A stretch of DNA of 51,499 bases, the filler included, from Jimgerdemannia flammicorona (taxonomy: Eukaryota), in NCBI GenBank assembly GCA_003990765.1. It is 2 parts of 2 records of this genome, joined end to end, with 100 filler letters (N's around TTAATTAATTAA, not from the genome) between each part and the next. Parts side by side here need not be neighbours in the genome. Positions count along the whole stretch, not along the records: positions 25,801 to 51,499 come from RBNJ01000803.1; 1 more part is not named here. The stretch is one strand, 5' to 3'. The notes beneath the pieces were generated by a model that made no database searches, had not been told where the DNA came from, and saw only the letters and a program-made list of their open reading frames with translations. The number at the start of each line of letters is the position of its first letter. The stretch's first letter is position 1. The position numbers were made by a program, and so were the translations under genes. Of this stretch, positions 13,701 through 49,600 are shown in pieces.

Positions 13701-14436
13701 GCACATGAAGCTAAGCAATAGGACGACGATGGCCTTGGATATTTTGTTGACGAGCAAGCAGTTATCGGCGGTGTTGAAGGCTTGTTATCATTTAGGTAAA
13801 CATTTCGTCCTTTGCTATGGCTGCCTTTTTTTTATAGTCTTATGAATATTGAAAGACTCCAATATCCACCGCATTCTCAACAATCTAGATGTAGTCACCG
13901 ACCTATCCAAGATCTGCTGCCTCCGGCTCATTGAGCACGACGTCATCCGCATCATCTTTACACTCATCAAGCAATCCAACCGTTCGCAGCCGCACATGGA
14001 AGTCCTCAAGCATGCCATGTATATCCTCCGCAATCTCTCGCGGACCCCGGAAACCTCGCCACACGTCTTCGCTGATCCCGAGGGCGTCGATATTCTCGTC
14101 GAGAGCCTGCAGTCGTACCGCGAGAACGAGCGGATCTTCGCCTGTGCTGCGTCCATCTTGGTGACGATGGCGCGAGGCGGGCAGGACGGCACTGCGAACG
14201 CTAGGCAAATGCGCCAACTCCCCAACGTCCTCAAACGCATCAAGGCGGTGCAGGCATTCGCTGAGAGGAAGTTCGCAAAGGAATTTTCAGCTACGGGCAC
14301 GGCGGCGAAGGCGAGCAAGGCGGCAGCGAAGCCTATGACGAAGGTGGCGAAGGAGAAGGAGAGGGAGAAGGAGAGAGCGAACAGGACGTTAGCGGCGTTG
14401 ACGGAGCTGATGGAGAGGTTGGAAGGTCGAAAGTAG
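7798..14436 (+). CDS. ASPM: Abnormal spindle (ASPM/Asp)-like protein: calponin-homology domains, long IQ-repeat array, C-terminal ARM/HEAT-like region; multi-exon
   Basis: QENAFTKWLN; CH motifs NLATDLRDGIKLTRLVE, DVVDGHREKTFALLWSVI and VRNFTNSFADGRALCYIVHHY; dozens of IQxxxRGxxxR-like motifs at 10567-13700; C-terminal SNRSQPHMEVLKHAMYILRNLS. Confidence 0.88.
11608..12320 (+). repeat. About 3 near-identical 231-bp (77-aa) tandem units within the IQ array, preceded by a more diverged unit
   Basis: GGTT(G/A)CGACG recurs at 11631, 11862 and 12093 (period 231). Confidence 0.9.
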
Positions 14437-25700: not shown

Positions 25701-25800
25701 NNNNNNNNNNNNNNNNNNNNNNNNNNNNNNNNNNNNNNNNNNNNTTAATTAATTAANNNNNNNNNNNNNNNNNNNNNNNNNNNNNNNNNNNNNNNNNNNN
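25701..25800. other. Assembly gap with artificial six-frame-stop linker TTAATTAATTAA (25745-25756)
   Basis: An N-run with an embedded palindromic linker. Base composition changes abruptly across it. Confidence 0.95.
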
Positions 25801-28799: not shown

Positions 28800-29147
28800 A
28801 TCACTCTCAAGGTCAAGTTTCATCCTGAAGCCAAGAACCCAGAATACAAGACTGAAGGAGCCATAGAAATAGACCTTGCCAGTATTTAGGATACTATCCT
28901 CAAACTACAGACCACTACTCTACTTGGTACTGAAATTGGAATCAGGTTGTCAGAGAACTATGCCAGAATTATCAAGACTAGGAGCAGTCTGGCTAAGAGT
29001 GAAATCTCAGTTGAAGGAAGAGTTATTAACCCTAATTATACTGGTGAGATCTTTCTCATAGTTAGGAATCACAACCCCACCACTCCATTCAAAGTCAAGA
29101 AGCATAACAGAATTGGCCAGATACTGATCCATAAAGTCAATCCATAA
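28800..29147 (+). pseudogene. dUTPase domain of element A, between protease and RT
   Basis: EGAIEIDL, KTRSSLAK, EGRVINPNYTGEI and HNRIGQILI are decayed dUTPase motifs 1-4. Confidence 0.85.
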
Positions 29148-30687
29148 AAAAAAAAAAAAAAAAACAAAAAAAAAAAAAAAAAAAAAAGATTCATAAAGTC
29201 TAGAAGCCTAAGATCACTGAAGACTTTGAACTCATCAAGACTAAGAGAAGAGAACAAGACTTTGGATCTACTAGAAGAGGAGTCTATGCTGTCACCAAGA
29301 TTACTAAACTTGAGCATAAGAAAAACAAGGACCAGAATAAGCATACATATACCATTGGAGAAAACTTTCCTCTAGAAGAACAACTTCTTAAGATCCTGCA
29401 CCAGAATGAAGAAGTACTTTCCACAGACTTCAGGGACATCTATAATCAAGAATCTAAGTATGTACTATCATAAAGTTGATACTGGTGATACCAAGCCTAT
29501 CTACCAGAAAGCCAGACCTATACCACCTGCCAACAGAGAATAGCTGTGAGCAGAACTTAAGGAAATGGAAGAAGCTAGAATCATCAAGTAAGCTATCAGC
29601 CTCTGGGCTTCAACCATTGTCCTCACCCCAAAGAAAGAAAGCAAGTCTGGAGAGTTTGCCTCAAGACTCTATATTGATTACAGAAAGCTCAATATAATCA
29701 CCAAGAAGGATAGACAGCTCTTGCCAAATATTCAACACTCTTAAAAGTGAAGCCAAATACTATACTACTTTGGATCTATTCTCAGGCTTCTATCAGATTG
29801 GTCTCACTCAAGACACTACTGAGAAATCAGTCTTCATCATACCTGATGTCACCTATTTCTACCTGCAAATGCTATTTGGAATGTACAATACTCTAGCAAG
29901 TTTTCAGCAAATGATGAACAGAGTCTTTAGCAATGAGATTGGAAAATAGCTCTTTGTCTATGTTGATGATGTGATCATCTTCAGCAATACTATATGAGAA
30001 TATATCAATCATATACAGCTAGCTCTCAAGAAGCTCAAGAAGCATGACCTCTACATCAAACTCAAGAAGTATAAGTTTATAGCTTAAGAAATCACTTACC
30101 TAGGACACATTATCAATCAGACTGAAATTCATATGGACTCTATGAAGATTGAGGCTGTTGCAGCCTATTCAAGACCAAGAACAATTACAGAAGTCCATGC
30201 CTTCCTTGGACTGATCTCCTACTATAGAAGATTTATCATAGGATACTCCAATATTATAGCACCTATCTACAAGCTACTGAAGAAGAAGACCAAATTTGAA
30301 TGAACCAAGAAATATCAAGAAACCTTCAATAAACTCAAGACCAGGTTAATCCAAGCACCCATCCTTAGAAGACCAGATTGGAACCTAGAGTTCATCTTGC
30401 AGAAGATACAAGTACTATAAAACCTGGAGCTATACTATCTCAGAAGAAAGATGGACATGAATATGTTATCTCCTATGCAAGCCAAGGTAGAACAGAACTA
30501 TGAGTCATGCAAGCTTAGATGCTTAGCAGTAGTCTGGATAGTGGATAAGTTTCACTACTATCTAGCTGAGAAATACTTCACTATTCAAACAGACCACTCT
30601 GTTCTTGCCTAACTATTCCACACTCTGAACTCCAAAGAAATATATACTAGATGGATCTACAGACTACAAGAGTATAACTATACTATC

Positions 30688-32749
30688 TGTAAGCGCACAA
30701 CCTCCAAGCCACCGAAATTATATGTCACCCTCTGAACAAGCCACTGAAATCACACACGACCTCCAAACAAATCTGGAAATCACCTGCTTGATCACAAAGC
30801 TGAGTCAAACCGAAGTCACAGCATACAAAGCTGAGTCAATATGAAGTCACGGAACACAAGATCTACACAAACGGAACCTTACCAATCAGGACCAAATGCA
30901 TATATACTGAGCACCGAGATGCGTCGAATCAGAGAACCAAAACAAACAACAACCACAACTTCCAAACACACAAACATGACCACTGAGATCTACAACCGCA
31001 TCTGCACTGACATTTGGAATGCCATTGTCAACTGAGCCACACCCCCTCTGCCTCTCATGAATATCCATAGCCTGGCACCCCTCTACTTCGTGGAAGCCCG
31101 ATGGAACGCCCTGAACATGCTTAGCGAGGCCCACCGAATCGGACAAATCTCAAGCTACTACCAGATCGGCTGCCTCCTGGAAGACATGGTTGAACACCAC
31201 CATGATACAGACATTACCCAGATGTCTCAACACCAGAAGCTCATTGCCCGCAAACATCGAGAACTCTTCTATGAATACAACACCTTTATCCCCCGCCTCC
31301 GAGTCACTACCAGCGAAATGGTTGCTACCCTGTCCTATGGCCAAATCGACGACATGATACAAGAAATCAACCACAAGTACCTTGAGTATGTCGAAACTAC
31401 AGACAGAACCTTCCCGCACCCTGATGACCACATTCTGCAAATGCCTCAAGTCGGATACGCCATGAAGGACGTCTACGATATAATCCACTTTGATGAAGAC
31501 GAAGCAGAAGACAATGACCCCTCTGACGCCGATATGACCTCTAGCCAAGAATCTCTGCCAACCCTGATCACTCTGCCAACCTTGCCGATGAACTTACAAC
31601 AGTTCATAACCACATACGAGACTTAATGGAACAATGACCACTGGCACGAATACCAACCCGCGTTCACCCCTGACTACTTCAACTACAATGAAGAGACCAG
31701 AGAACACAACCTGTACCTTCAGACAACTCTTGAGATTGAACCAACCACTCCACCACCCGAGTACGAGCAACTTGAATCACAGCCGCCAGCTTACTACAAC
31801 CCTGCAACTCATAGTGCTGTAACCTATAGAAGGTATGCAGACAGTGAATCTGATGAAAGCGAAGACAGTACACCCATCCTTCGCCCACCAACACCTTACC
31901 CAGCATATGAAACAGACGATGCTATCCTGTGGGACGGAGATGAAGTCCCAATGTATTACTACCTCAGCCAACAAGGAGAAGTAATCCACGAACCATTATT
32001 CCTAGACGACTACTTCATCAGAGATGATGCAATCGATGGTGATATCATCGAAGACTACCCAGATAGTGCCTAAACCTATAAATAGTCTAGCAGTCATAGT
32101 ATAGTTAGATTAGCCTTGTACGATGTGACTGTGAACTGACTCAGCAGTCAGACGATCTCTTGACATATCAGATCACACTTGTACTATGTGACTGCATTCT
32201 GACTCAGCAAGGCACTTAGTGCTACATCCATATTCAGCATAGTCCAGATAGCCCCTCACTAGTATAAATACCCCCTCCCCCAGACCTCAGAATCTCAGAC
32301 TCAAACACACAAGAACATTCCTGAATACTTCTCCACAATATCCCTTTACACAACTACTCCTAGTATAGCAATATCATGAATAGCGAATAAACCTATTTCA
32401 TAACCCACAAACCACTCTTAAGTAAATCCACTCCCTGTTAGGTCCTACTCCTAACCCTGTTACGATATCTCCTAATTGGGTATTGTCTGCAGCGATACGC
32501 CGATTCAACTAAGCTGGTCTTAGTTTCTTGAACTTCCTGAAATACGGAAAATTCTGAACATCCAGAACTAGTCTGAGAAAGGACTTTGGTTGAGATGTCA
32601 ACCCGATCTTGAAATCAATAAGCGTAGAGGACATACTCCATACGAAATTGATCTTGACCATAAGAAAACGGTCTTCCAGAACATCCAGAATATCCAGAAA
32701 ACTCTTCTAGAACTATGTAACGGTTACCCTAAAAAGTAACCCTCTTACA
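30688..32749 (+). mobile_element. 2062-bp solo LTR of a third family, inserted in the RNase H of element A
   Basis: Ends TGTAAG...CTTACA. 5-bp TSD CTATC at 30683-30687 and 32750-32754. Removing it restores EYNYTI|KYYLGRTNANADILSR. TATAAAT at 32263, AATAAA at 32386. Confidence 0.92.
30976..32073 (+). pseudogene. 365-codon accessory ORF inside the solo LTR (two in-frame stops)
   Basis: One frame from ATG 30976 to TAA 32071-32073. It is broken only by TGA 31033 (likely from CGA) and TAA 31624 (likely from CAA). Confidence 0.8.
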
Positions 32750-34387
32750 CTATCAAGTACTACTTAGGAAGAACCAATGCTAATGCTGATATACTCTCAA
32801 GAATATCCTGAAACACTCTCATCAAGACTATTCAACATAAATAAGAAGCTATACTATGGATTAATCAGCTATCTTGAGCAGTAGAAGATGTCCAACCACC
32901 TTAAACCATGGACTATCACTATTATCAATTGGACTTAGAAACAATTTGAACTAGACAATACTATACTCAGAAAAGGAGAAAAGCTCATAATATCCAAACA
33001 TAAGAAGTATCAAGTAATGAAGAAAGTATATGAACAAGGATACCTAGGAGGAACTAACATATATAAGAACTATATAGTGATCTAAGATAGAAGAAGACCT
33101 GTGCCAATTTATCAAAGAGTATGACAAGTGTCAAAAATAGAAATAAGATCAGTAAGACCAGGCACCTAGGTCATCAAGAATTGAGTCTATTCTCTTCCAC
33201 TATATCACAATAGATATCATTGGACTACTACCAGTAATACTATCATGAAAATACTACATTATAGTTATTATAGATATCTTTACTAAATAGATAGAAGTAG
33301 GAGCATTACAAGAAGTCAATGCTCTCTCTATAGCTGACTTCCTGCACCAAGAAATCATCTGCCACTATAAGACACCAAGGCAAATCACCACAGACCACAG
33401 TACAGAATTTGTCAATGAATTCTCTGAGATAATATATCAGAAATATAAGATTCAGCATATCAAGACCACCATGTACCACTCTTAAGGAAATAGATAGACA
33501 GAAAGAATTAATAAGACCTTTAAGAACATCCTGACAAAGATCTCAGACACATATGACAATTGGAATAACTACCTCCCAACTGCTCTCTCTGTCCTATGAG
33601 ATATATGATCACAGAGTACACACTTTACCCCAAGAGAACTGCTCTTCAGAGAAGAAAATTCTGATGGAACTTCAGCTACAAATCTAGACCTAACTTGGAG
33701 ATAGATGAACTCAGAAATCTGGAGACTATACTAAATTAAGAAGAAGGCTGAAGATTACATCATCAAGTTATAAGCACTGATAAAGAAGAATATAGAAAAG
33801 AATCACAAGACTCTAGAATTCATCCAAATTGGAGAAAAGCTTCTACTGTATCAAAATATAATAGAAGTCTCATAGTCATGAAAACTGGAGCCCAAATGGG
33901 AAGAACTCTTCTATGTGTGAGATATTAAGGAAACTCCCTTCTGGTTTAGAAAACTCTCAGAGACCATACTGCCTACTATAGTATATAGGAACAGACTCAA
34001 GAAATGCCATGAACCTATATAAGAAAAGTAAAACATAATGACTACCCACAAGGTTCTAGTCTGTGAATTGTAACAGTATGTCTTATAATCAGTGGGCAAT
34101 CTATCTGGACTATTATTTAAGAAATATGGTACTAACAACTACTCATCTGTGAGACTTTCAAAGTCAGAGGAGTTCAAACCATCAACTGATTGATCAAGAT
34201 CAGAATCAGGCCCTTGCTCTATATGAAGAGAGTAACCATTCACCATTATGCCAAAATACATAAAAAAGATACCAGCTCATAAATACCACTTTTCAATACT
34301 CTGCCAGAGATTATAGGATTATCAAATTTTTCAGACTAGACCAATAAATAAGAATGTTCAAAAGAAGATTCTTATTTAGAAGGAAGA

Positions 34388-35953
34388 TATAATAGTGACC
34401 TCAGAATGATAACATCATCACAGAAGACAGTCTTTCCTTACAAGCCACTAGATCAGAGTATAAGAAGATCATATAGCATAAATTACCTGGGCTACAAGAT
34501 GAGTAATGGTGACCAATCCTGAGTCATCATGATCACAAGACAGATATCTTGAGGAATATAAAAGAAGGACCAAGCAACTATAGTAGCAGTAACTCAAACA
34601 AGGCTCATAGAAATAGTTCAAAAGACTTACCACAAACAAAATACCTGCCACTCACCAAACCTCAAGATCTAGGAACTACCAAGGCTTCTAAGTCTAGAAA
34701 AGAATATTCTAAGATATCAGAAGAACTATGAGGATCTGTATAAGAAGAACTCCTAGTCTCAACCTAGGTACTGGTGACCCTTATCACTTTATTCTCTACT
34801 GCTGTAAAATGGAAACAAGGATCACTATTACTACCAAGTATCTCTGAATAGGGCAGGAATATAAAATAGAAAATCTCCTCTATTGGGAATTCCCTCAAAC
34901 TTATCCCCAAGAGATATATGTAAGATACTACTTCTATGGATATATATAAAATAAGAATAGCCAAGAAGATTCATCAGATCTTCAGATATATATAATGGTC
35001 AATCCCAAACTTAGAGTATACTAGAGTCTTGGACTTCTAGAAATTATCAGCCTATCATACTAATATATAAGAGGCCATGGTGGCCACAGAAGTCCAGTCC
35101 ACTATTACTCTCAATAGTAATGAACTGGAATCCCATCCTTTAGAACAATCTGGATCAATTTCTACAAGGATTGATCTCAGCATTCTAAGGGCCCAGTATC
35201 CAGGATAGACATCTCCAAAACCCCACATTTGTTTCTTATTTTATAGAAGAGAATCTCATAGATTGGAGGGCCCCAGATCTCCTTGCTTTCTCCACTACAA
35301 AATAAGATAACATTATCTGCAATAACATCATCAGTGATGACATCATTCTGCTAATTGGCAATATATGTGAAATGGATAAAATGTTTGCTGATCTCATCTC
35401 CTTCAAAGACATCCTGTCCCTGATCTCTAGCCTTGATGATAGTGATGAAGATGAAGCCCCCATAGTCCTGAACTTCCTACTCTAAGTTCTTTGTAATACT
35501 TAAATTTTCTGACATCTTTTTTCTATAACATCTGAATCTTTGAACACTCTTTTTCTGTACTACTGAAATCTACTGATACTCTGAACTTATACAACTATTT
35601 GTACAGGTACTCAAATTTATACTTACAACTAAAGTTTTCTGTATTTCAGTATTTTATTTAGTTATTAGAATTTATATTTAGCTTTATATCTTAGCAACTA
35701 TTGAATTATATTTTGTATAAATACTCCTCTTATTTCTTTTGAAATAAAGTCAGTCAAATTCACTTACACTCAATTCTATATAAGTAATCTAAGAGATAAC
35801 AAGACAGTTTAAAAATAAGAAGTTTGAGGACTATAAGACCTTAAGAAGATACTCCAATAAGAACTTGCTTATAACAAACTTGTGGTTAGTCTAAGAGATA
35901 TACCTTGAAGAGAATCTGATATATTTAAAGGACTCAGCAACTACTATGTGATA
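34388..35953 (+). repeat. 3' LTR of element A (~1.57 kb) containing a decayed accessory ORF (~34506-35485)
   Basis: Purine tract AGAAGGAAGA, then TATAATAGTG (decayed TGTAATAGTG), an imperfect inverted match to the LTR end CACTAT..ACA. The 5' boundary is inferred. Confidence 0.6.
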
Positions 35954-37148: not shown

Positions 37149-38385
37149 TGTAACGTGCCTGGCTCAATGGAGGCAAATTACAAGGTTGGGGGTTGATGTA
37201 GTTTGGTTTGAGCCTCCAGTTACTTTGTCAAAAAGCAACAAAATGTTCTAAGATTCCTGAGATCCTTGGTGTTTAGTGGTATAATAGTCAAGATCTGGAT
37301 ACTGTGCGAGTGGTTTCCTTATTGGGACGGTTCTTCTGGGTGTAGTGGCGATTTGTGTGTGTGAACGGGTTTCCTTCTTGGGTCAACTGGGAATGCCACA
37401 ATTTGTGTAGCGCGACGGGGTTCCTTATTCGGGTCAACTAGGAATGCCACAATTTTGTGTAGCAAGGCAATCTCCAAAAGTATGCGATTTCTGGCATGAC
37501 GATCTCTTGTGTAGCACGATGGTTTCCAAAAGTATGCGATTTCTGGCATGACGATCTCTTGTGTAGCACGATGGTTTCCAAAAGTATGCGATTTCTGGCG
37601 GATAACTCGATTTGGCTCACTGGGAATAAACGAATAACTCGGATGGCGCGGATTCAGCTTCAACTGGGAATACTACTCGGATGATGCGGATAACTCGGAT
37701 AACTCGGATAACTCAGATGTCACGGATTCTTCCTGAATTGGCAGCTCTTCTGGGAATACGATGGCGCGGATTCTTCCTGAATCGGCGGCTTCAACTGGGA
37801 ATGCGGATAACTTGAAAATGGCGGACTTCTTAGAATCGGCGGCGAAGTTCTTCCTTGAACTTGGCGGCAAACTTCAGGCTTATCTGGCAAGCGAACCAAA
37901 AATGAACTTGTTCTTTGTATCGGAAAGTGGACCGGAGTAGAAAAAGGGAACCAATGCTCACAATCTCCTAGTAGTGACTGTAGAGTGGGCATTTCTCCTA
38001 AGTGTTGCAATCCTTCCTGGATCAAGTGGCTTTTGGCAGGCATATCCCTTGAAGTGTAGTAGGCAGACTTGTCTTTTGCTTTGGATTCAATTTTTGGACT
38101 GAGGTTTATTCACTCTTGTCTCTGGGGTAATTTATACATTGTGGTTGCTATCCAGTTGCTATCTGGCTAACTATAGATCTGCTATTTATGGTGTGTTTGG
38201 GTGGACAGTCACTGTCTGGTGGACAGCCACTGTCCAGGGGACAGCCACTGTTCACATTATTCCCTTCTTTGGCTATCTGGTTATTTATACATTTTTCCAC
38301 AGCAATGGTTGCTGGTTATTATACTATGTTAATGTTTATGTCACCTGGTTAGTTTTGAGATTACTATGTTTCATGGTTTGTCACA
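37149..38385 (-). repeat. 3' LTR of element B (1237 bp) with internal 52-bp and 9-bp tandem repeats
   Basis: Ends TGTAAC...GTCACA. 37149-37900 matches 45934-46624. A 52-bp unit starts at 37474, 37526 and 37578; (GGATAACTC)n at ~37688-37715. Adjacent PPT-like AGTGGGGGCTGA on the minus strand. Confidence 0.85.
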
Positions 38386-38424
38386 TCAGCCCCCACTGAA
38401 GAATAGTCTGTCCCAGACTATTCT

Positions 38425-38931
38425 TCAGTCATCATCCCAATAAGCATAAGCTGCTTCTGCATCTATACCCATCCTGTCATCTTCATTGTCTATATCAGGG
38501 TCACTCCATTTTAGCTCTGGATCTTCTTCTTGTCCTTCAGGAAACAGGATGTCTACTTGTTGGAGAATACTCTGGAAGGTGGTCTTGTTCATTTGATGAA
38601 TATCATTGAGATAGAAGTGAGATTGCACCAGGGCTCTGACATTTCATTTGTACAGAGTGTAGATTCATTTGGCAGTTCTTGCTTCTCAGCAGATTGTCCC
38701 AGCTGGTCCTTCAATGTATAGCTGTTCTTCAAGTAATTGTCTGATGTTGTAGAAGACCTGTAGATGGTGGTTCTGTAACAATCTTTGGGTGATGGCAAGG
38801 TTCTCTTGATGTTTCTGGATCAATTGTATTGGGGTTCCTTCAAGTTGGTGGAACTGGGGTAAGGGAACTGGTAGGGCCTGAAAGAAGCTGAGGACCAATG
38901 TCTGGAGGTGCTGATCAATTCTTTGACTCAT
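38425..38931 (-). pseudogene. 168-aa accessory ORF of element B, between integrase and PPT
   Basis: One frame MSQRIDQH...VFYNIRQLLEE...TAK*IYTLYK...WDDD* with three TGA stops (likely from CGA). Its ATG overlaps the pol stop. Confidence 0.75.
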
Positions 38932-41814
38932 GGTATAGAGGGGAGATATAGTTTGAGGCAATTGATTTGTACTGGTGTTCTCAGGATTCATCCATCCATG
39001 TTTCTTAAATAGATGCTAATTCCTCTGATATTGTGTATAAGACAAGGTTCCTCTCATTTGGGTTCCAACTTGGCAGCAAAGTTTGTCTCAATCATGCTTC
39101 TCCAGACTAGGACTTGATCACTAACCTTGATCATCTGGTCCTTCTGCTTCTGGTCATAATACTTCTTTTGTCTTTCCAGAGCTTTGATAATCTGATTTCA
39201 GGCTTCATTTCTCAGCTAATCTCCCTTTTTGAGGAGTTTTTCGAGATTCCCATGGTCAGCAGTTCTGGTCTTCTTGGCAAACATCATTTCAAATGGGTTT
39301 TGTTTGGTTGAGGCTGCAGGGGTGTTTCAGATTTCCCATAGGATCTCAGGTAAGCAGAGGTCCCAATTAGTAGGATTGACTCAGGCAAGTCCTTTCTTGA
39401 TGGTCTGGTTCATTCTTTCTGTCATGCCATTGGTCTGAGGGTAGTATGAAGTAATCCTTTTGAGGCGGATCTTGTGAATTCAGGCATAACTTGTGATTAT
39501 GTTGTTGATGAATTCCATGTCTTGGTCAGAGATAAGTTCTTCTGGGGTCCATATCTGAGTGTGAGTCCATAGAGGAGACCTACAATGGTTAAGGCATCTG
39601 CAGTTTCCATTGGGAAAGCCTCAGGCCACTTGGTCAGATGTTCCACAAATACAAGGATATATTTGTTTCTTCTTGATATAACTGGTAGAGGTCCAATTAT
39701 ATCTACTCCCCATCTCTAAAAGATGTGAGTGGGTGGGGGAATTGGTTGCAAAGGGGCTTGATAGTTCTTCTTTTCTTAGTACTTCTGACAAGTATCATAT
39801 TTCTGGATGATATCTCAGACTTGAGTTCTGAGGTGAGGCCAGTGTTGATACAGTTTCCAAATCTTGTCTTCTATACTTGTCTGTCCTTGGTGGGCTTTCT
39901 GATATTCTTTATGGATAAGATCTTCTTGTGTTTTGATGGTCTAAGGAGCTTCCTTTAGAGTGTAGTTCCTTGGGACACCCTTCTTCTGGTTCATTGGGAC
40001 TGGCAGGAAAGTATATCAACATTGTTGTGGGCTTTCTCTGCTTTGTGGATGATGGTGATTTTGTAATCCTGAAGGATAAGGATCCATCAGGCTAGGATTC
40101 TGGTGGGTTTCTTGTAGTTGAATAACCATTTGAGGGCTGTATGGTCTGTGATCAGGGTGAACCTTTTTCTGATGAGGTAATGCTTGAACAGAGTGACTGC
40201 CCATATAACTGCAAGATATTCCAGTTTGGTGCTACCATAGTTCATCTGCTGCTGATTGGTAGCCCTGCTTGCATAAGCTATTACATAGTGCTGTTGATTG
40301 GGTCCTTCTTGGACTAGAACTGCTCCTAAGCCATCTTTGGAAGCATCTATATACAGGAGGAATGGCTTCTGTAGATTGGGGCATACAAGGATTGGTGCTG
40401 TGGTCATATGGTTCTTGAGTTTTCTGAAGATTATTTTTTGTGATTCTGTCCATTTGAATGGTACTCCTTTCTTGAGAAGGATCTGGATTGGGGCAGTGAT
40501 TTGTGCAAAGTTCTTGATAAACCTTCTGTAGTAGGATACTAGTATCAGGAATGATAGTGTTTCTATTAGGGTCTTTGGTACTGGCCAATTGTTGATCTTC
40601 TCAGTTTTCTTTGGGTCTGCATGGGTTCCTTCTTTTGAGACTATGAATCTAAGGAATTCAAGTTTCTGTTTCCAAAAGTAGCATTTCTTTGCATTCAGTC
40701 TCATGTGATTTTTGTAGGTGAGCTTGAAGAATTCCTCCAGGTAGTGCAGGTGTTCTTTGAAATTTGCTGAATAGATATTGGAATCATCTATGTATACAAT
40801 TAGGCAGTAGTGGATCAGGGGGGTATAGACTGAATTCATCATCCTCTGAAAAGTGGGGGGTGCATTGCAAAGTCCAAAGGGCATTCAGAGGTATTCAAAC
40901 AGTTTTTCTAGAGCAAGGAAGGCTGTCTTCTGAATGTCCTTGGAGTCCATGGTGATCTCATAGAATTCTGTGAAGAGGTCCATACTACTGAAGTATCTGA
41001 TATCTTATAACTGGTCCAAAAGGTCATTGATTCTGGATAAAGGATAGGCATCCTTTTTGGTAACTGAATTGAGTTTCCTGTAATCTACACAGAGTCTCCA
41101 TCCTCCTTTCTTTGGTACAATAAGTATAGGGCTGGCCCAGGGGCTGATAGAGGGTCGGATGACCCCATTGTCTAAGAGTTCTTGAATGTGCTCCTTTTCA
41201 AATGTTTTCAAGTGATGGGGTATTCTATAGGATTTCTGCTGGATAGATATTACATTTTCTGTATTTATGCTGTGGTGATATGATGGATTGTATGACAGGT
41301 TGCCATAATCAGTAGTAAAGATATCTTGATATTTGTTGAGAAGTTCTACTAGTTGTTGCTGTTGTTGAGATGTTAATTCTTCTCCAATATTGGTGGAAGG
41401 CTTCACTGTCTCCTGGGTCACAGAGAGGCCTTTTCTTTCTTCTGGGACCTTTTGCCATTTCCTGATAGGTTTAGTTCATAAACTTCCCTATGAGTTTGGT
41501 TGAGAAAAGGCACCAGATGTCCTATGATGGTTCCTTTTGGCAAGATGATAGTCTCCCAACTTTGGTTGGTCACTCAGGAGTGTACCAGATTCATCTTGTC
41601 AGAGAATGTGTGTCTCTCTATGTCCAGATGGGAGATATCTTCCTTGGGCTTGAAGAAAAGGTTTCTGGGGTCGGGTGGTGCAAAGATTTCGAAGGTAGTT
41701 TGTTCCCCAGGCTCCAGGATCAGATTCTTGTGCAGTCTGACTGATTGCTGGTATACTTACTGGGGAATATTCCTTTTGAGATAGTTGACTTGAAGGAGAT
41801 GTACTTCCTTTTTA

Positions 41815-42215
41815 TCTGAACTTTCAAATCCTTTGGCTTGTCTTGTTCCTTCAACTAGTTCAGTGACTTCTTCCAATTGTGGAGTTTTGATCTTCATGAA
41901 GACTGCTTGGGCAATTTTCTGCCCTCTAATGATTCAGTGCCATTCTGCACTACTGTTGTGTAGGATGACCTTGATTTCGCCTGTATATCCTGGGTCAATG
42001 GTTCCTCCTTCCACAGTTATTCCTTGTCTGGCAAGTCCAGACCTTGAGGTCAGTTAGATATAAGATCCTTGAGGTGGCTGCATGGCTAATCCAGTTCTGA
42101 TCATGAAGGTTTTCCAGGTTTGATAGATTTATCCTCCAGACTGTGAAGATCATACCCTATATCTTCTGGGTGGGCTTTGGTCAGGGGTTTGGCCTTGGGA
42201 TGTAGCAGGGCATAC
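41815..42215 (-). pseudogene. dUTPase domain of element B
   Basis: DIGYDL, TSRSGLARQG, GGTIDPGYTGEI, GQKIAQAV and RQAKGFESS are all five dUTPase motifs. Confidence 0.92.
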
Positions 42216-45200
42216 TGGGCAATATCTTTGCTGAGTTCAGGCTGTCCTAGAGCTGAGGCTCCACTAGTAGAGAGCCTCCAGGCTCTGAGATTGAGGTGTG
42301 GCCATCTGGCTCCAGTAGAGGGATCTTGGAGATAATTGATTCCCCTTCTTCCTATAGGGTCTAGGGCTTCCATGACATTGGTGGCATCTTCTGCCCATCC
42401 TTGGTAGGTTGTATGTCTGATGAGAGCTAGGATGTCTTCTCCCAAATCATAGATCTTGAGGACTCTTCTTCCTGGCTTCCTGGTTTGGCTTTTTCAGATC
42501 TGGCTTCTGTTGTCTCCTCTCTTTAAAGTATGGACTGTGACATCATAACTGAGGTGAATCTTCTGATGTCTGCAGTCTTGGCAGTCAGGGTGTCTCCCAT
42601 GGTTGCAATATCTCATTGCTCAGAAATGGTGTTCCCGGCTGTTGATTTCTTGTTGCCTTGGGAATTGGTACCCATCTTGATCATAAGTTGGGAGAAGGGT
42701 AGACAAGGGGTATATTTCTATTCAGGTGAAGAAGCCTTCTTCTCTAAATCAACTTTATAATCTTGTGGTAACTTCTTGAAAAGTGTTTGACCATACAAGT
42801 GTAGTTTGGGGTTCTGGTCTCTGGGGTCTCTGTCTTTCTTATTGATCCAACAGATGACACTGATAGCAGTAGTCTCGGGGAGAGTGGAAGACCATTTGGT
42901 GTAGACATCTTCCTAGCCAGAAGGCTTTCTCTTGGTGAGTTTCTTTCTTGTGGATAATGGTGATTGTACTGGATCCTTCTTCTATATTTCAAGGATCATT
43001 GTCTTCAGATAGTGTCTAGCAAGGATCATCTCAGGGAATGAGTTTGGGGACCTCTTCTTCTTCAGGTACTTCTTGTTCAGGAACTTCTTGATCAGAAGTT
43101 TCTTTTTCCTCAGATGATTCTTGATCCCAAATTGCTTGTACTTCTGCTGCTTCAATTACAGGTGTTTCTGGAACATGTCTGCATTTCTTCTTCTTTCTTC
43201 TGCATTCTGGGGAGGCTGTGCCAGGCGATTTCCTTGTTCCCATGATCTTGGAGGAGTGCTCAGGACACTTATGTCTCTTGAGGCAGGTAGGGCATCCTTA
43301 TGCTTCTCCTGCAATGGCTCCAATGGTGATGGGGATGGTATTTTTAGCCCATACATTGTCTTCTGGTCTGTCATCCACCAGATTGATTTGGGGATTGAGT
43401 CTGGGATCATTTCCATCTTCAGATTCTTTTTTCTCTTCTGTAGTAGACTCCTTGCTGCTGGCATATTCTTCCTGTATAGTGACCTTTTTCTTCTTCATTG
43501 ATTGCTCATAGCTGGTTACCTTAACTCCATACTTCTTGCCTTAGTAGTCAAACTTGAGTACCTGTTGGCCAATATCAACAACTGCATTCATTTCCTTCAT
43601 CCAGTTGGTACCAAGAATTATGTCATAGGTAACAGCTTCAGTGAAAACAGCTTTGGGGATGGAGAACTGAATGTGTCCAAGGGAGATAGTGATATTTCGT
43701 ACTTCTCCAAGGGGTTGAGTTCAAGCTCCATCTGCTACTATGATGCTGAGGTTGGATGGTCCATCAATGGGCCATTGGAGGGTGTCCAGGAATCGTTTGG
43801 CAATGACACAGACAGCTGCTCCTGTATCTATGAGGATCTTCACCTTTTGTCCTTCAATATCTCCATATAGGTAGATGCTGACATGTCTTTCAGCTACTTG
43901 GACAGGGATGGAAGCTGGTTCTTGCTGTGGGATTGGAACTTGGCCAGTGCTAGACCTGGTGGTTCTCAGTAATTTATTTCAGACTCCAGCTGGTGTCAGT
44001 TGCAAGAACTGCAGGAGAGGGACTTCCATCTTAGCTTCTTGAATCTTCTGCCAGGCTTTGTTGTAAATGTCTCTAGGCATAGTCTGCAGAGTATACTTCT
44101 TCTTAGGCTTTGGAGCAGCAGGTTCCCATTCTTCTTATTCCATTTCTTCATCTTCTGGTAGCAACTCGTTTGTCTCAGAAACAAAAGGTAAGGGGGTTTG
44201 GAGAGGTGTTTCTACTTATTCCTCCTCATGTTCTTCATCTTCTTCTTGGATGATTCTTCTGCTGATGTTCCTGGATGGCCTTCCTATAGGTCTCTTCCTC
44301 TTTTCTGCTGGGTAGACTGTCTTTTGGGTGGTAACCTTGGTAGGGTACAAGTCTAGGTCACTGTAGTCTTCACTATTGCTTGCTTCCTTGAAATCTTCAA
44401 TAGGATGGACTTCAGTCTTCTTGTACTGGGTGTCATTCCTTTGGTTTGGTGGTTCTGAGTCTCTTCAGTCACTTCTTTTGTTGTTATATTCAGTGGCATA
44501 GTGTTCAAATTATCTACAGTGGAAGCATTGGACTTGAGCTCTATCTCAGACAGGGTACCTTCTTTCTTCTTGCCCATAATTCCTATTATCTCTTGGTGAA
44601 TAGCCTTGGCTCCTCTGTAGTGGGTATCCTCTGTTGTCTTGGTAGCCCCAATTTTTATATATAGTGAGTTTTTCAATCTGTCCAACCAATCAGTCCAACT
44701 TGGAGCTGAGGTCTTAGATTTCACTTCTGTCCTTCTTTTCTTCCTTGGCTGGCCTTCTTTCTTTAGATCTTTCTGGCTCTTGAAGGAGTCCTTATAGGGG
44801 ACCAGGATGTCTTCTTTTTCTTCTTTCCTATTATGATCACTCCAGGTAGTTCCTTATATGATATCAAAGAATCCTTGGGCTGCATCTACTTATTCTTCAG
44901 ACCTTCTGATACCCAGGGTGCAGACATTCTGGGCAATGTTTGGAGGAATTCCATTCATAAAGGTCATTGGACCTATAATGTCCTGATTAGTGGCATTGAA
45001 CCCAGCAGCATGCATTCTTTTCTGGATTCTTGTGAAGAAGGCTCTGGGTGATTCTCCAAGATTCATTTTCATCCCCATTATGGATTCTTGGGCCTTGTGG
45101 TGGGTTTCATTTCCTGCTTACTTTTTGATGAGCCAATGGACCATGGCCTCATATTCTAGCTCATAAGACATTGCTACTTGTATTTGTCTCACCAGTTCTG

Positions 45201-45913
45201 AATCTGGGTTATTTGCTGTTCAATAGAAAATTCCTCTGGCTGGTTCTTTGAGCTGAGTCTTGTAGATGGAAATTTTTCTTTCATCTGAGAGATTTCTCAA
45301 GACTGTGATTCCTTCAATTCCATCAAGAAATTCTCTAGGGTCTTCCTCTGGGTATCTTGCAAAGGTTGGCAATGAGGTAGCCATTTCTTCATCACTTTCT
45401 TCTGATTCTGGTTTAGGTTCAGATTTTAATTCTGATTCACTTTCTGAGCTGTCACTGGAGGTGGGGGTGCTTGGGTATCCTGAGGATGGTGTTCTGGACC
45501 TTAGATGAAGTGGGATAAGCCTAGGTATTCTTGTAGGAGCTGCTTCTAATTCAAGGGGTTGTGGTAAAGGTTCTATTGGTAAGATTGGTGGAACTGATCT
45601 GGGGCATCTGGCTGTAAGGTCTCAGGTTCATGTGATAAGGTCTTCTAATTCTTGTGCAAGTTCTCCAAAATCTCTAGCTGGGCTGTCTGTATTGTCTGGT
45701 TGATCTGGTTGGAGATTTTGGGTTGTACTGCCTTCTGGTTGGGAACCTTCTGATGCTGGGTAGTTGGTAAGTCTTGATGTGATTACTTCTCTTCTTGTCC
45801 AGATGCTAGTGATAACTAGTTCTCCTGTAGTAGCAGAGATTGATGTTGTATCAAATGTATCCAGTTTGACTATGGGTTCTTGTGAGCTGAAAAGTCATGT
45901 TGATTTTGAAATC

Positions 45914-45931
45914 TTCCCAGTTGAGCCCCCA
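45914..45931 (-). promoter_or_regulatory. Primer-binding site for tRNA-Pro
   Basis: TGGGGGCTCAACTGGGAA lies 2 nt from the LTR end and resembles the classic tRNA-Pro PBS TGGGGGCTCGTCCGGGAT. Confidence 0.85.
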
Positions 45932-45933
45932 AA

Positions 45934-46624
45934 TGTAACATGCCTGGTTCAATGGAGGCAAATTACAAGATTGGGAGTTGATGTAGTTTGGTTTGAGCCC
46001 CCAGTTACTTTGTCAAAAAGCAACAAAATGTTCTAAGATTCCTGAGATCCTTGGTGTTTAGTGGTATAATAGTCAAGATCTGGATACTGTGTGAGTGGTT
46101 TCCTTATTGGGACAGTTCTTCTGGGTGTAGTGGTAATTTGTGTATGTGAACGGGTTTCCTTCTTGAGTCAACTGGGAATGCCACAATTTGACGGGGTTCC
46201 TTATTCGGGTCAACTAGGAATGCCACAATTTTGTGTAGCGAGGCAATCTCCAAAAGTATGCGATTTCTGGCATGACAATCTCTTGTATAGCGCGACAGTT
46301 TCCAAAAGTATGCGATTTCTGGCAGATAACTCAATTTGGCTCACTGGAAATAAACAAATAACTCGGATGGTGCAGATTCAGCTTCAACTGGGAATACTAC
46401 TCGGATGACGCGGATAACTCGGATAACTCAGATAACTCGGATGTCGCGGATTCTTCCTGAATCAGCAGCTCTTCTGGGAATACGATTGTGTGGATTCTTC
46501 CTGAATCGGGGGCTTCAACTGGGAATGTGGATAACTTGAAAACAGCGGACTTCTTAGAATTGGCGGCGAAGTTCTTCCTTGAACTTGGTAGCAAACTTCA
46601 GGCTTATCTGGCAAGCGAACCAAA
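45934..46624 (-). repeat. 5' LTR of element B, lacking the U3-side ~485 bp (probably cut by the LINE)
   Basis: Matches 37149-37900 up to gcaagcgaaccaaa, then diverges. Confidence 0.85.
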
Positions 46625-49600
46625 TACAACTCATGTTACACAAACTTCAAGAAACCGTTTTTCAACACAACTTGGAGGAAAGGTACTATAACAATGTCAT
46701 TGAGCAAGAGTTCTGCCAGGTGTGCTAGGTCAGGTGGACCTGGGGCTTTTGGCTGGCAGCATGTGGGGAGGGGGTATGGCCTGGGGATGGGGGCCTTTGG
46801 AGGGTTGAAGGGTGGTGGGGGCTCTGGAGGTAGACTGGTGTCTGGTAGCCATGGGGAGAGGCCTGGTACCCAAAGTTTTGTGGATAAGGTGAAGGGGAGT
46901 GGGTGGCTAGCTGGGACTAGGGCTGGTGCTGTGGTAGGGAAGGGCAAGGCAAGCCTCAAGAGGGGGGGAGCTACTCAGGGGGGGAATGCGAGCATAAGTG
47001 CTGGAGGTGCAGTGGCTGGGGATGGGACTGCTGATGGCAGTGTGACAGGCAATCAGGAAAAAAAAAGAGATGTGACAGCTGATGGCAGTGTGGGGCAGGG
47101 GTTCTCAATGCGGAAGGGTGACCTGGCTGATAGTGTGACAGGGCTGGCAGTGGCACTATTACTCAGGAAGTCAATTTCAGAGTTTGCAGTGATACTGTGC
47201 TTTTGAGGCTTGGTGGTAACAGTGAGGATGGTCTTGGGGCTTGTCTCAAAGCAGGTGACTGGGGCTGCCTCAGTGAGGTTCCTGAATGGCTTGGAGGGAG
47301 TTGAGGTGGGCTTTGAGGAGGCAGGCCCACTAGAGGAGATACTGAAGTCTGGAGTGGTGGTTGGCGAGGTAGTAGTCCCCATGATGCACTGCCTGAGGTG
47401 GGATCCCAGGGTGGTGCAGCTGCTGGTGAAGGGGGTGTCTATGATGATGAAGGAGGAGACCAGGAGGAGAGTGGAGGAGGTGATGGTAGGGTATGGTGAT
47501 GTAGTGGATATCAGTTTTCAGATGTGAGAAGGGACCTCTATTAGGACTAGTGATGTGGAGGTGAGGATTAGACTGGCAGAGAGGGAGGCCACAGGGAAGA
47601 TGAGTGACTGGCCCTCAGTATTGATGTGGGGGGCCTTTATCTATAAGGTATCAAGGGTGTGAGGGAATGAAGAGGAGGAAGAGGACTTGCTGGAGGCACT
47701 GGAAGAGTTGAGTGGTGCTGTTGAGAGGAGGGCGAGGGCCTGAAAGGTGTATGAGGAGTCGATGCATCTGGAGATTGTTGATGGGAAGAGGATTCAAATG
47801 GACAAGGGGCAGTGGGAGTGTGCCCAGGGGTGCAAGCGGCAGAGAGAGCTGTTGGCGAGTATGAGCAGTGGGGCTATAAAGAAGGCTGATGGGGCTGAGG
47901 TGTCTAGGGGTGCCAAAGCCAGTGTCTGGGCCAATAAAGGAGAAGAGAAGATAGAGGTGAGCAAGGAAGGAGATAGGAAGGTGCTGAGCAAGAGCCCCTA
48001 TACTGATGGCACATTTAAGGTCTGGGAGCAGGAATTGGATACCACCCCCCCCCCTCTTATCAGGAGGGGCCCAGCTTGGAAGAGAGGAATGACAGAGGAT
48101 GTACTGATGCAGGGGGCCCAGCGAGTGCACTTTGGGGTCCCTGATGTAGCGAAAGGGGGCCAGGTGGTGGCAGTTAGTGAGGATGAGCTAGTGGATGTCC
48201 CTGAGGAGGAATGGGATGAGGCTGTCAGTATCAGAGCTGACACCATGATGTTGGATGCAGGGTGGCCAGGGACTCCAGGAGGGAAGGAGGTGGGGAATTT
48301 GTTGTGGATGAGCAAGGTGATGGATAATATTGTGGCAGAGGTGTTGGGGGAAGTGGACCTGTGGGTAATGCCCAAGGAGCACTAGGAGCAAATCCTGTAT
48401 AGTGATGGAGTGATGGAGGCACTGAAGGTGGAGATTCTTATGATCTTCCTAGAGGAGGAGGGATATGAGGTTGATGAGGTGAGGAAGGCAGAGCTGGTGG
48501 TGGTCACTAGTAAGTGGGTGGCCTACTGTTGGGCAGAGCAGTTCTGGCAGGAGGCCTGTCTGGAGTATTGTGAGGACTTTGAGGAGCAAGAAGATGGGGT
48601 GATGGTAGAACTTCTGGGTGGGTTGGAGGTACAGGAAGCTGGAGAAAGGGAGCTAGTGACTGAATATGACTTGGACTTAGTGCAGGAGGAGCCAAATGCG
48701 GACTTGTAGAGGATGGGACCACATTATATCATTATTCCTTATGAACAGTATAACCAACATTTTCTCTTTGAATGTGAATGGGTTAAGGGGTTCTGGGTGG
48801 TATAAGAACATTTTTACCTGGCTCAAGGGATTGGAGGCTGATCTCTTTTTACTATAGAATATTAGGTATGAGGATGAGGACAATTGGGTAGAGTGGACTA
48901 GGGAATAGGGTGGGGCTACTGCTTGGTTTGAAAAAGTGGCAATTCTGATGAGGAAGGGTAGAGGAGACTTGGGGGGAATCAGGAGCTGGGATGATCACTT
49001 GGTCTGAGGTAATAGATATTGGCCAGGGTGAGAGTCAGTGAAGGTTGGCTCTTGCTACTGCCCTGCAGTTAGAGGTGAGAGAACTGCATGGATTAGGGAG
49101 TTGCTGGAGGAGGGTATTCTCTTGGAGGAAGGAGTTGATGTTCTCAGTGGGGACTTTAACATGGTTCAGGATCAACATCTGGACAGAACTGATGGAGGGA
49201 GGAGTGCAGAGGGGAGAAGTGGAGGTCTGGATGCATAGGAGAAGGTGAAGAAGTTGAGCTCCTTTGGGGTATATGGGCAGAACACGGTGGGGTGACACCA
49301 GGGTCTACATACATTGGGTGAATGGATTGGGTACAAGAATTGACTGGATTCTGATGGCAGAGTGCTGGGGTCCTGATGTTTGGAAGATATTGGAGGTGGA
49401 GTAGTACCCATGGTCTGATCACTGGGGACTGTTGGGGCAGGGGCAGTTTGGAGGGAGTGGAGATAGACCTGGACATTGGCACCTTAACTCCTCCCTGCTG
49501 GCTGAGAAGGGGTTGTGGAACTCATGGGTGGAGGACATTCAGGTGAAGGTTTCTATCTGGAGGCATGAGGGTTTGTCTGTGGGTGTCTATTGGATGAGAT

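What the first reader, a model, noticed from the sequence alone, without database searches (positions are those of the whole stretch)
30688..32749. A 2-kb solo LTR that is itself a gene cassette, with PPxY motifs
Seen: perfect TG..CA ends and a TSD enclose a 365-codon ORF that fills over half the LTR. Its tail reads PTTPPPEYEQLESQPPAYY, which holds two PPxY motifs in an acidic/Pro-rich region. Established: PPxY binds the WW domains of Nedd4/Rsp5 ligases (the retroviral late domain), and U3-encoded genes are known in retroviruses (MMTV sag, the nef overlap) but are unusual in fungal retrotransposons. Inference: every solo LTR left by recombination deposits a full copy of the gene, possibly a ubiquitin-ligase adaptor.
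Basis: partly seen in the sequence, partly recalled or inferred. Interest (0 to 1): 0.72.

Follow-up and report, generated by a model that had tools for sequence, protein, structure and literature searches.

The report
Gene inside a fungal retrotransposon LTR
The 2-kb terminal repeat of an abundant fungal Ty3/gypsy jumping gene carries its own selected protein-coding gene of unknown family, a layout known from a few retroviruses, but this copy is broken and the proposed ubiquitin-ligase-binding motifs do not look like the protein's conserved core.

Summary
30688-32749 is a true solo LTR (TGTAAG..CTTACA, CTATC duplication) of a dUTPase- and chromodomain-bearing Ty3/gypsy family. One contig holds a full LTR-gag-pol-LTR copy. 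The 365-codon U3 frame (30976-32073) is a real gene: 21 of 67 copies are uninterrupted, and shared non-deamination variants are strongly synonymous (omega about 0.02-0.11 in every segment). Both PY motifs are kept as (L/P)PxY in 64 of 67 copies, but no more than the rest of the tail. They are lost in the only outside relative covering them, and absent from a probable distant homologue encoded after pol in another family. The protein has no Pfam, Atlas or fold match. My best guess (about 0.4) is a trans-acting regulator of the element with an acidic-aromatic activation-type tail, made from a second promoter in U3; an Rsp5 adaptor as main role is about 0.2. Expression is not shown. Earlier scan notes reported this kind of LTR gene on other DNA of this genome.

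The parts
30688..32749 (+). Solo LTR (2062 bp) of a chromoviral Ty3/gypsy family, TGTAAG..CTTACA
   Evidence: 40 of 40 scored own-genome copies match at 93-100%; paired around gag-pol on G000:C1402
30683..30687 (+). Left target-site duplication CTATC
32750..32754 (+). Right target-site duplication CTATC
30976..32073 (+). U3-encoded accessory gene, 365 codons; pseudogene in this copy
   Evidence: uninterrupted in 21 of 67 copies; purifying selection
31033..31035 (+). Premature stop, codon 20
31624..31626 (+). Premature stop, codon 217
30976..31491 (+). N-terminal predicted helical domain (codons 1-172); weak end-to-end similarity to the ORF3 of another Ty3 family
   Evidence: helices only in low-confidence models; hhalign E 0.004
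31492..32070 (+). Acidic, Pro/Tyr/aromatic-rich tail (45 D/E, 5 K/R in 193 aa)
31753..31764 (+). PY motif 1, PPEY
   Evidence: PPxY in 51 of 67, (L/P)PxY in 64 of 67; absent in P0003
31783..31794 (+). PY motif 2, PPAY
   Evidence: PPxY in 55 of 67, (L/P)PxY in 64 of 67; absent in P0003
30794..30855 (+). 31-bp tandem duplication with two TGAGTCA sites (30801, 30832); bZIP/Gcn4-AP-1-type consensus (recalled)
   Evidence: exact in 59 of 63 and 60 of 62 copies
30901..30906 (+). TATATA, candidate TATA box of a second promoter about 70 nt upstream of the ATG
   Evidence: suggestive only
32137..32143 (+). TGACTCA site upstream of the main TATA box
   Evidence: exact in 62 of 67 copies
32263..32270 (+). 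TATAAATA, candidate main LTR TATA box, downstream of the ORF
32386..32391 (+). AATAAA, candidate polyadenylation signal in R
30388..30687 (+). Insertion site: end of the RNase H region of an older, decayed Ty3/gypsy pol
   Evidence: Pfam RT_RNaseH E 1.8e-16; integrase core downstream at 33171-33560

Best explanation
Shown: a solo LTR left by a Ty3/gypsy chromovirus (LTR-PBS-gag(CCHC)-dUTPase-PR-RT-RH-IN-chromodomain-PPT-LTR, about 10.6 kb). Its U3 holds a 365-codon accessory gene that was selected along its whole length while the family amplified. Inserted copies then decay by C-to-T change. Inferred, step 1: the gene has its own promoter in the first 290 bp of U3 (two TGAGTCA sites, TATATA, an A/C-rich leader) and ends at the LTR's own poly(A) signal, so each LTR is a self-contained transcription unit. 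Inferred, step 2: the protein is a soluble trans-acting regulator of the element, a helical domain plus an acidic-aromatic activation-type tail that boosts or de-silences transcription from the downstream main LTR promoter, in the logic of foamy-virus internal promoter, Tas, then LTR. The PY motifs are a lineage-specific extra that may set the protein's turnover through Rsp5. Confidence in the anatomy and selection is about 0.95; the figure given is for the mechanism.
For: LTR identity. Domains. Selection: shared T>C/A>G variants in 5 or more of 67 copies are 38 synonymous to 1 non-synonymous, and shared transversions 10 to 6 against 15% synonymous expected. Singleton C>T/G>A changes are neutral (omega about 1.5). 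Deletions run at 0.03/kb in the ORF and 0.4-0.6/kb in the 5' U3 and R/U5 parts. The 47 open codons upstream of the ATG are unconstrained (omega 0.75), which fixes the start. Against P0003, aromatics are kept (Y 22 of 23, W 3 of 3, F 7 of 7) while acidic residues exchange (D 18 of 31, E 11 of 23), the pattern expected of acidic activation domains (recalled); there is no transmembrane segment (maximum KD19 0.86). The probable homologue's core is basic (pI 10.3). Motif columns of both candidate promoters carry few non-deamination variants: 0.11 per column at TGASTCA, 0 at TATA, 0.9 elsewhere.
Against: No function test exists. There is no Pfam, Atlas or confident fold match. This protein's own N-terminal domain is acidic (pI 5.5), which does not favour DNA binding. 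The promoter statistics are weak: only three TGASTCA sites are family-wide and two are a tandem duplication (3 or more in 3.1% of shuffles); 3 of 28 motif columns and 0 of 15 TATA columns vary against 210 of 921 others. A spliced or 3'-end mRNA from the genomic transcript is not excluded. Homology to the second family is only probable (2 of 100 block shuffles scored as high). The activator reading was prompted by an unchecked earlier scan note.
Confidence: 0.4

Rival explanations
1. One reading: the protein is mainly an Rsp5/Nedd4 adaptor. The helical domain binds a host restriction or silencing factor (or Gag) and the tandem PY motifs recruit the WW domains to ubiquitinate it.
For: Two motifs ten residues apart, kept as (L/P)PxY in 64 of 67 copies and in 19 of 24 and 21 of 24 older copies. 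The change fixed between subfamilies at codon 260 gives LPEY, still a PY motif by the yeast definition (definition recalled). The host encodes a C2-WW-HECT ligase. The Gag-to-protease frame of L031 has no PY, PTAP or YPxL motif of its own.
Against: The PY segment is no more constrained than the rest (omega 0.11 against 0.02-0.07). P0003 keeps 22 of 25 prolines and the three lost are all in the motifs (P 0.002, or 0.011 leaving out codon 260; one sequence, possibly decayed). 8 of 8 family-2 proteins checked have no PY motif. Chance of two motifs from composition is 2-5%. Retention among 90-95% identical copies is expected anyway.
Confidence: 0.2
2. The protein acts after transcription, as an RNA export, packaging or particle-assembly helper (like CERV of Cer1), with the acidic tail as a nucleic-acid mimic or chaperone.
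For: Soluble, helical and selected; the probable homologue's core is basic. In family 2 the ORF starts on an ATGA overlap with the pol stop, which would tie its synthesis to the genomic RNA. Precedent: PMC10309623 (search listing and start of abstract only).
Against: No RNA-binding motif or fold match. A separate promoter in U3, if real, fits a regulator better.
Confidence: 0.2
3. The gene is real, but only the 3' LTR copy is ever used, through a spliced or internally primed transcript of the full element. Solo-LTR copies are silent passengers, whatever the protein does.
For: The main TATA box is downstream of the ORF. Inserted copies decay neutrally and 46 of 67 are interrupted. ORF3s are typically expressed from spliced messages (PMC5408684, passage read).
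Against: A TATATA box, two TGAGTCA sites and a good start context lie inside the LTR upstream of the ATG and are conserved.
Confidence: 0.3
4. The frame is a chance or captured-DNA open frame with no function.
For: No known family; the window copy is broken.
Against: Strong purifying selection in all segments, near absence of frameshifts, and an open relative at 65% identity in an outside metagenome.
Confidence: 0.02

Closest known systems
MMTV sag and primate lentiviral nef, ORFs in retroviral U3 (PMC2664473, passages read)
   Same: A sense ORF in the 5' part of an enlarged LTR, so it is duplicated in both LTRs and stays in solo LTRs.
   Different: The host here is a fungus and the element a Ty3/gypsy retrotransposon. 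The LTR is 2062 bp against about 1300 for MMTV. No sequence similarity was detected. No transmembrane segment (sag is a membrane protein, recalled). nef lies only partly in U3.
Foamy-virus Tas/Bel1 and Bel2
   Same: Proposed logic: a second promoter makes an accessory protein with an acidic tail that may act on the LTR promoter.
   Different: Analogy only. No homology found; the foamy internal promoter lies in env, not in U3; activity is untested here.
Additional ORFs (aORF/ORF3) of LTR retrotransposons: plant env-like and antisense aORFs, Botrytis Boty (PMC7264820, part 1 of 3 read), rotifer ORF3s (PMC5408684, passages), rice Retrosat2 ORF0 (PMC3485330, passages)
   Same: A conserved extra ORF of unknown function at one end of the element. 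The probable homologue in this window's second family sits exactly in the ORF3 position.
   Different: In the text read, those ORFs lie in the internal region, whereas this one lies wholly inside the LTR. No transmembrane, lipase or exonuclease domain.
Fungal chromoviruses with dUTPase: PosPlaTy3-3/-4/-5, Phanerochaete elements, Tmt1 (PMC2864245, passages)
   Same: Ty3/gypsy order RT-RH-IN, a chromodomain, and dUTPase at the N-terminus of Pol as in PosPlaTy3-3.
   Different: No LTR-encoded ORF appears in the passages read; that paper's supplementary .doc tables were not seen. Clade placement was not tested.
PPxY late domains and viral Nedd4 adaptors (retroviral Gag, EBV LMP2A; recalled)
   Same: Tandem PPxY motifs in a Pro-rich acidic region.
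   Different: The motifs are not in Gag and not on a membrane protein, and they are not conserved outside the family.

Membership tests
LTR of an LTR retrotransposon | TG...CA ends with short inverted repeat and 4-6 bp target-site duplication | tested here: met
   TGTAAG/CTTACA with CTATC; 9 of 66 solo copies with a perfect 5-bp TSD
LTR of an LTR retrotransposon | Paired direct copies flank gag-pol | tested here: met
   G000:C1402: LTR, 6519 bp, LTR; pair 96.4% identical; TSD AAGAG. C2835 and C8248 show the same with one LTR cut by the contig end
LTR of an LTR retrotransposon | PBS after the 5' LTR and PPT before the 3' LTR | tested here: met
   26 and 26 of 66 copies; the match of the PBS to initiator tRNA-Met is recalled, not tested
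Ty3/gypsy chromovirus | PR-RT-RH-IN order with C-terminal chromodomain | tested here: met
   Pfam on L031, L034, L036, L037
Ty3/gypsy chromovirus | RT phylogeny within a named chromovirus clade | not tested
U3-encoded retroviral ORFs (sag, nef) | ORF inside U3, upstream of the main TATA box and R | tested here: met
   ORF at LTR 289-1386, TATAAATA at 1576, AATAAA at 1699; the U3/R border is inferred from motifs
U3-encoded retroviral ORFs (sag, nef) | Sequence homology to Sag or Nef | tested here: not met
   0 Pfam families; no such hit among 4 proteins at E<=0.001
Env-like ORF3 | Transmembrane segment | tested here: not met
   maximum 19-residue hydropathy 0.86
Nedd4/Rsp5 adaptor (PY-motif protein) | (L/P)PxY motifs present | tested here: met
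   64 of 67 copies for each motif
Nedd4/Rsp5 adaptor (PY-motif protein) | Motifs conserved in diverged relatives beyond background | tested here: not met
   both lost in P0003, the only outside relative covering them; none in 8 family-2 proteins; omega not lower than the flanks
Nedd4/Rsp5 adaptor (PY-motif protein) | Binds WW domains and brings about ubiquitination of a target | not testable with these tools
   needs a pull-down; a host ligase gene exists
Tas-like trans-activator | Acidic-aromatic activation-type tail | tested here: inconclusive
   composition and conservation pattern fit; activity not measured
Tas-like trans-activator | DNA-binding domain | tested here: inconclusive
   models under pLDDT 40; fold search gave only generic helical bundles, Z<8; domain pI 5.5
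Tas-like trans-activator | Own promoter separate from the genomic-RNA promoter | tested here: inconclusive
   candidate motifs with weak statistics; no raw RNA reads available
Shared accessory family with the ORF3 at window 38931-38386 | Significant profile-profile homology | tested here: inconclusive
   hhalign E 0.004, probability 8%; 0 of 100 column shuffles and 2 of 100 block shuffles reach the score; collinear from residue 1

The most novel reading that the evidence does not exclude
A lineage of fungal Ty3/gypsy elements has evolved complex-retrovirus-like regulation. An undescribed accessory gene moved from the ORF3 position into U3 with its own bZIP-site promoter, so every LTR, solo LTRs included, is a free-standing gene for a trans-activator or anti-silencing factor. 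This family then gained PY motifs that couple it to Rsp5. Hundreds to thousands of such cassettes would act in trans on the whole family.
Probability: 0.25. Interest if true: 0.82.

Novelty: new variant of a known kind. Interest (0 to 1): 0.58.

Why it matters
LTRs of retrotransposons are annotated as non-coding. In the papers read, genes inside U3 are described only for retroviruses (sag, nef), and ten literature searches listed no report of one in a fungal element; most subscription papers are not in that library. Here the gene is strongly selected, belongs to no known family and rides in a very abundant element. It gives a testable handle on why some families amplify in a genome that mutates its repeats heavily: promoter mapping, activation assays and WW binding are ordinary experiments. 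It also means solo LTRs can be gene copies, which matters for annotation and for how such families spread.

Tried and rejected
Known protein family: Pfam gave 0 families; the ESM Atlas gave no usable hit for the whole protein or residues 1-172. phmmer over 1.84 billion representatives gave 4 hits: 2 true relatives (P0003, P0004) and 2 repeat proteins judged spurious. No related loci were found in JGI metagenome or IMG/VR scans. Structure: AlphaFold2 mean pLDDT was 37 for the single sequence and 39 for the 15-row joint alignment, so adding family-2 rows gave no support for homology. The fold search returned generic helical bundles, none at Z 8 or above. Expression: no RNA holder is on record. 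Contigs of two runs only guessed to be RNA cover R/U5 and pieces of the ORF; their summed depth piles on 32314-32660, but contig depth cannot rank parts, so it is not used as evidence. A P0003-like subfamily in this genome was not found among the 150 best matches of two searches. The fourth TGACTCA (32200) is not family-wide: 10 of 65 copies. Over the whole window TGASTCA is not enriched (11 found, 8.9 expected). The sigma-70 scan does not apply to a eukaryote. A long frame in the host element's 3' region showed no similarity to this ORF (hhalign E 0.35, one frame tried, copies frameshifted). A complex prediction with a WW domain was not run, since any PPxY peptide would tend to pass by likeness to solved structures. 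Earlier-findings look-ups by sequence and by PPxY words were empty.

Full report
Observation. The unit 30688-32749 is 2062 bp, begins TGTAAG, ends CTTACA and is flanked by CTATC on both sides. It sits at the end of the RNase H region of an older, decayed Ty3/gypsy pol (Pfam RT_RNaseH upstream, integrase core downstream). An ATG-to-TAA frame of 365 codons spans 30976-32073, with PPEY at codons 260-263 and PPAY at 270-273. The longest ATG frame left is 189 aa and ends before the motifs. The host looks fungal: the window's ribosomal protein L15 scores best against PDB entries that I recall as fungal ribosomes (the table names no organisms).

It is an LTR. A search of the own genome scored 40 of 6082 first-look candidates, all 40 near full length at 93-100% identity; candidates are not copy numbers. 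Among 66 distinct full-length copies with both flanks, 26 are followed by ACTTGGTAG (PBS-like; the match to initiator tRNA-Met is recalled), 26 are preceded by a purine tract, 9 are solo with a perfect 5-bp duplication, 3 have one mismatch (one of these looks like a cut 5' LTR) and 2 are unclassified. Contig C1402 holds LTR, 6519 bp, LTR, with LTRs 96.4% identical and an AAGAG duplication. The internal region encodes a Gag zinc knuckle, dUTPase, protease, RT, RNase H, integrase, an SH3-like domain and a chromodomain. That is a chromovirus with dUTPase at the start of Pol, as described for PosPlaTy3-3 (PMC2864245, passages).

The ORF is a real gene. It is uninterrupted in 9 of the first 30 loci, all 30 of which keep 1098 nt, and in 21 of 67 distinct copies. 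The loci were the best-scoring hits of DNA and protein searches, so the intact share is biased upward. Singleton C>T/G>A changes are neutral (omega about 1.5) and follow a CpG 18%, CpA 5%, CpC 4%, CpT 2% spectrum, which fits decay after insertion. Variants inherited by many copies are strongly synonymous: T>C/A>G in five or more copies, 38 to 1; transversions, 10 to 6 with 15% synonymous expected. Two subfamilies differ by 22 synonymous and 8 non-synonymous fixed changes. Deletions are 0.03/kb in the ORF against 0.6 and 0.4/kb in 5' U3 and R/U5. Constraint covers the whole protein (omega 0.07, 0.02, 0.11 and 0.06 for codons 1-172, 173-255, 256-276 and 277-365), while the 47 open codons upstream of the ATG are free (0.75). 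Related copies share variants, so these counts are sites, not fully independent events.

The protein. It has a predicted helical N-terminal half and a 193-residue tail with 45 acidic and 5 basic residues, and no transmembrane segment. Pfam and the ESM Atlas gave nothing, both models are under pLDDT 40, and the fold search is uninformative. Outside this genome only P0003 (65% identical over 250 columns) and P0004 (91%, N-terminal piece) were found. A second Ty3 family in the same window has a 181-codon ORF3 (38931-38386, minus strand) between pol and the polypurine tract, with relatives in public metagenomes. It aligns collinearly with our N-terminal domain from residue 1, at hhalign E 0.004; 0 of 100 column shuffles but 2 of 100 block shuffles scored as high. 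I put homology at about 0.7. If it holds, the gene occurs both outside and inside the LTR, which suggests U3 grew to include a former ORF3 (inference).

The PY motifs. They are present as PPxY in 51 and 55 of 67 copies, as (L/P)PxY in 64 of 67 each, and in 19 and 21 of 24 older copies. The host has a C2-WW-HECT ligase gene. Against the adaptor reading: the segment is no more constrained than its flanks; P0003 keeps 22 of 25 prolines, 22 of 23 tyrosines and all W and F, yet its three lost prolines are all in the two motifs (P 0.002, or 0.011 without codon 260; a single sequence whose changes could also be C>T decay); and 8 of 8 family-2 proteins checked have no PY motif. Two motifs arise in 2-5% of shuffles of the tail. 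The motifs may well bind Rsp5 in this family, but they are not the conserved core.

How it could be expressed. The ORF lies upstream of the main TATAAATA (32263) and AATAAA (32386), so the ordinary LTR promoter cannot transcribe it in a solo LTR. Upstream of the ATG are two TGAGTCA sites in a 31-bp duplication, TATATA at 30901 and an A/C-rich leader; a TGACTCA site also precedes the main TATA box. These columns carry few non-deamination variants, but the statistics are weak, and no raw RNA reads were available. A second promoter is therefore suggested, not shown.

Mechanism. Shown: LTR identity, solo state, element anatomy, selection on the whole ORF, decay of this copy. Inferred: an own promoter (about 0.6), and a trans-acting transcriptional or anti-silencing role through an acidic-aromatic tail (about 0.4 overall). 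Rivals are an Rsp5 adaptor (0.2) and an RNA or particle helper (0.2). Independent of function, solo copies may be silent passengers (0.3). The activator reading and the own-promoter lead came from unchecked earlier scan notes; I tested them only as far as stated.

Known relatives and novelty. ORFs in U3 are known for MMTV sag and lentiviral nef (PMC2664473, passages). Extra ORFs in LTR retrotransposons are common, but in the text read they lie in the internal region (PMC7264820, part 1 of 3; PMC5408684, passages; PMC3485330, passages). PMC3601003 on LTR structure had no whole-word hit for ORF. Ten searches, read as listings, showed no report of a fungal LTR-encoded gene; subscription papers and the .doc supplements of PMC2864245 were not seen. 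At least six earlier notes of this scan describe the same kind of gene on other DNA of this genome; they are not independent evidence. Verdict: a real, well-supported new variant of a known layout with an undescribed protein; function open; the PPxY reading is plausible but secondary.

Noticed in passing
window 38931-38386 (-): A second Ty3/gypsy element (about 37149-46624) has a 181-codon ORF3 whose ATG overlaps the pol stop (ATGA) and whose stop abuts the purine tract and LTR start; 13 relatives turned up in public metagenomes. Probable distant homologue of the LTR gene.
   Followed up: partly
window 34070-35950: The host element has a long, decayed, possibly coding 3' region after integrase that runs into its LTR and ends in an acidic stretch; no similarity to the LTR gene in the one frame tried.
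   Followed up: partly
L103, L104, L106, L109 (C212, C85, C695, C7509): Copies of the host family's 3' region have a second, inverted partial copy within about 1 kb; unexplained.
   Followed up: no
G000:C1402 4693-6775 and 13295-15377: Both LTRs of the full-length copy show a frame break near codons 103-106 of the LTR gene, as expected if it arose before or during reverse transcription; it may hint at complementation in trans.
   Followed up: no
window 32314-32660: Contigs of two runs guessed to be RNA pile up on the R/U5 part while a third run is flat; not usable as a measure of expression, but worth raw reads.
   Followed up: partly
window 37400-37740 and 46190-46460: The second family's LTR carries 52-bp and 9-bp tandem repeats.
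   Followed up: no
window 28800-29130 and 42150-41830: Both other Ty3 elements in the window also appear to carry dUTPase-like stretches (read by eye; not scanned).
   Followed up: no
window 7798-14436: A host gene with many IQ-like repeats, resembling ASPM/abnormal spindle (recalled), next to ribosomal protein L15.
   Followed up: no
window 25701-25800: Assembly gap of N with an embedded TTAATTAATTAA spacer; the finding lies on contig C803 to its right.
   Followed up: no
window 46700-51100: G-skewed stretch with decayed frames that look like a non-LTR retrotransposon.
   Followed up: no
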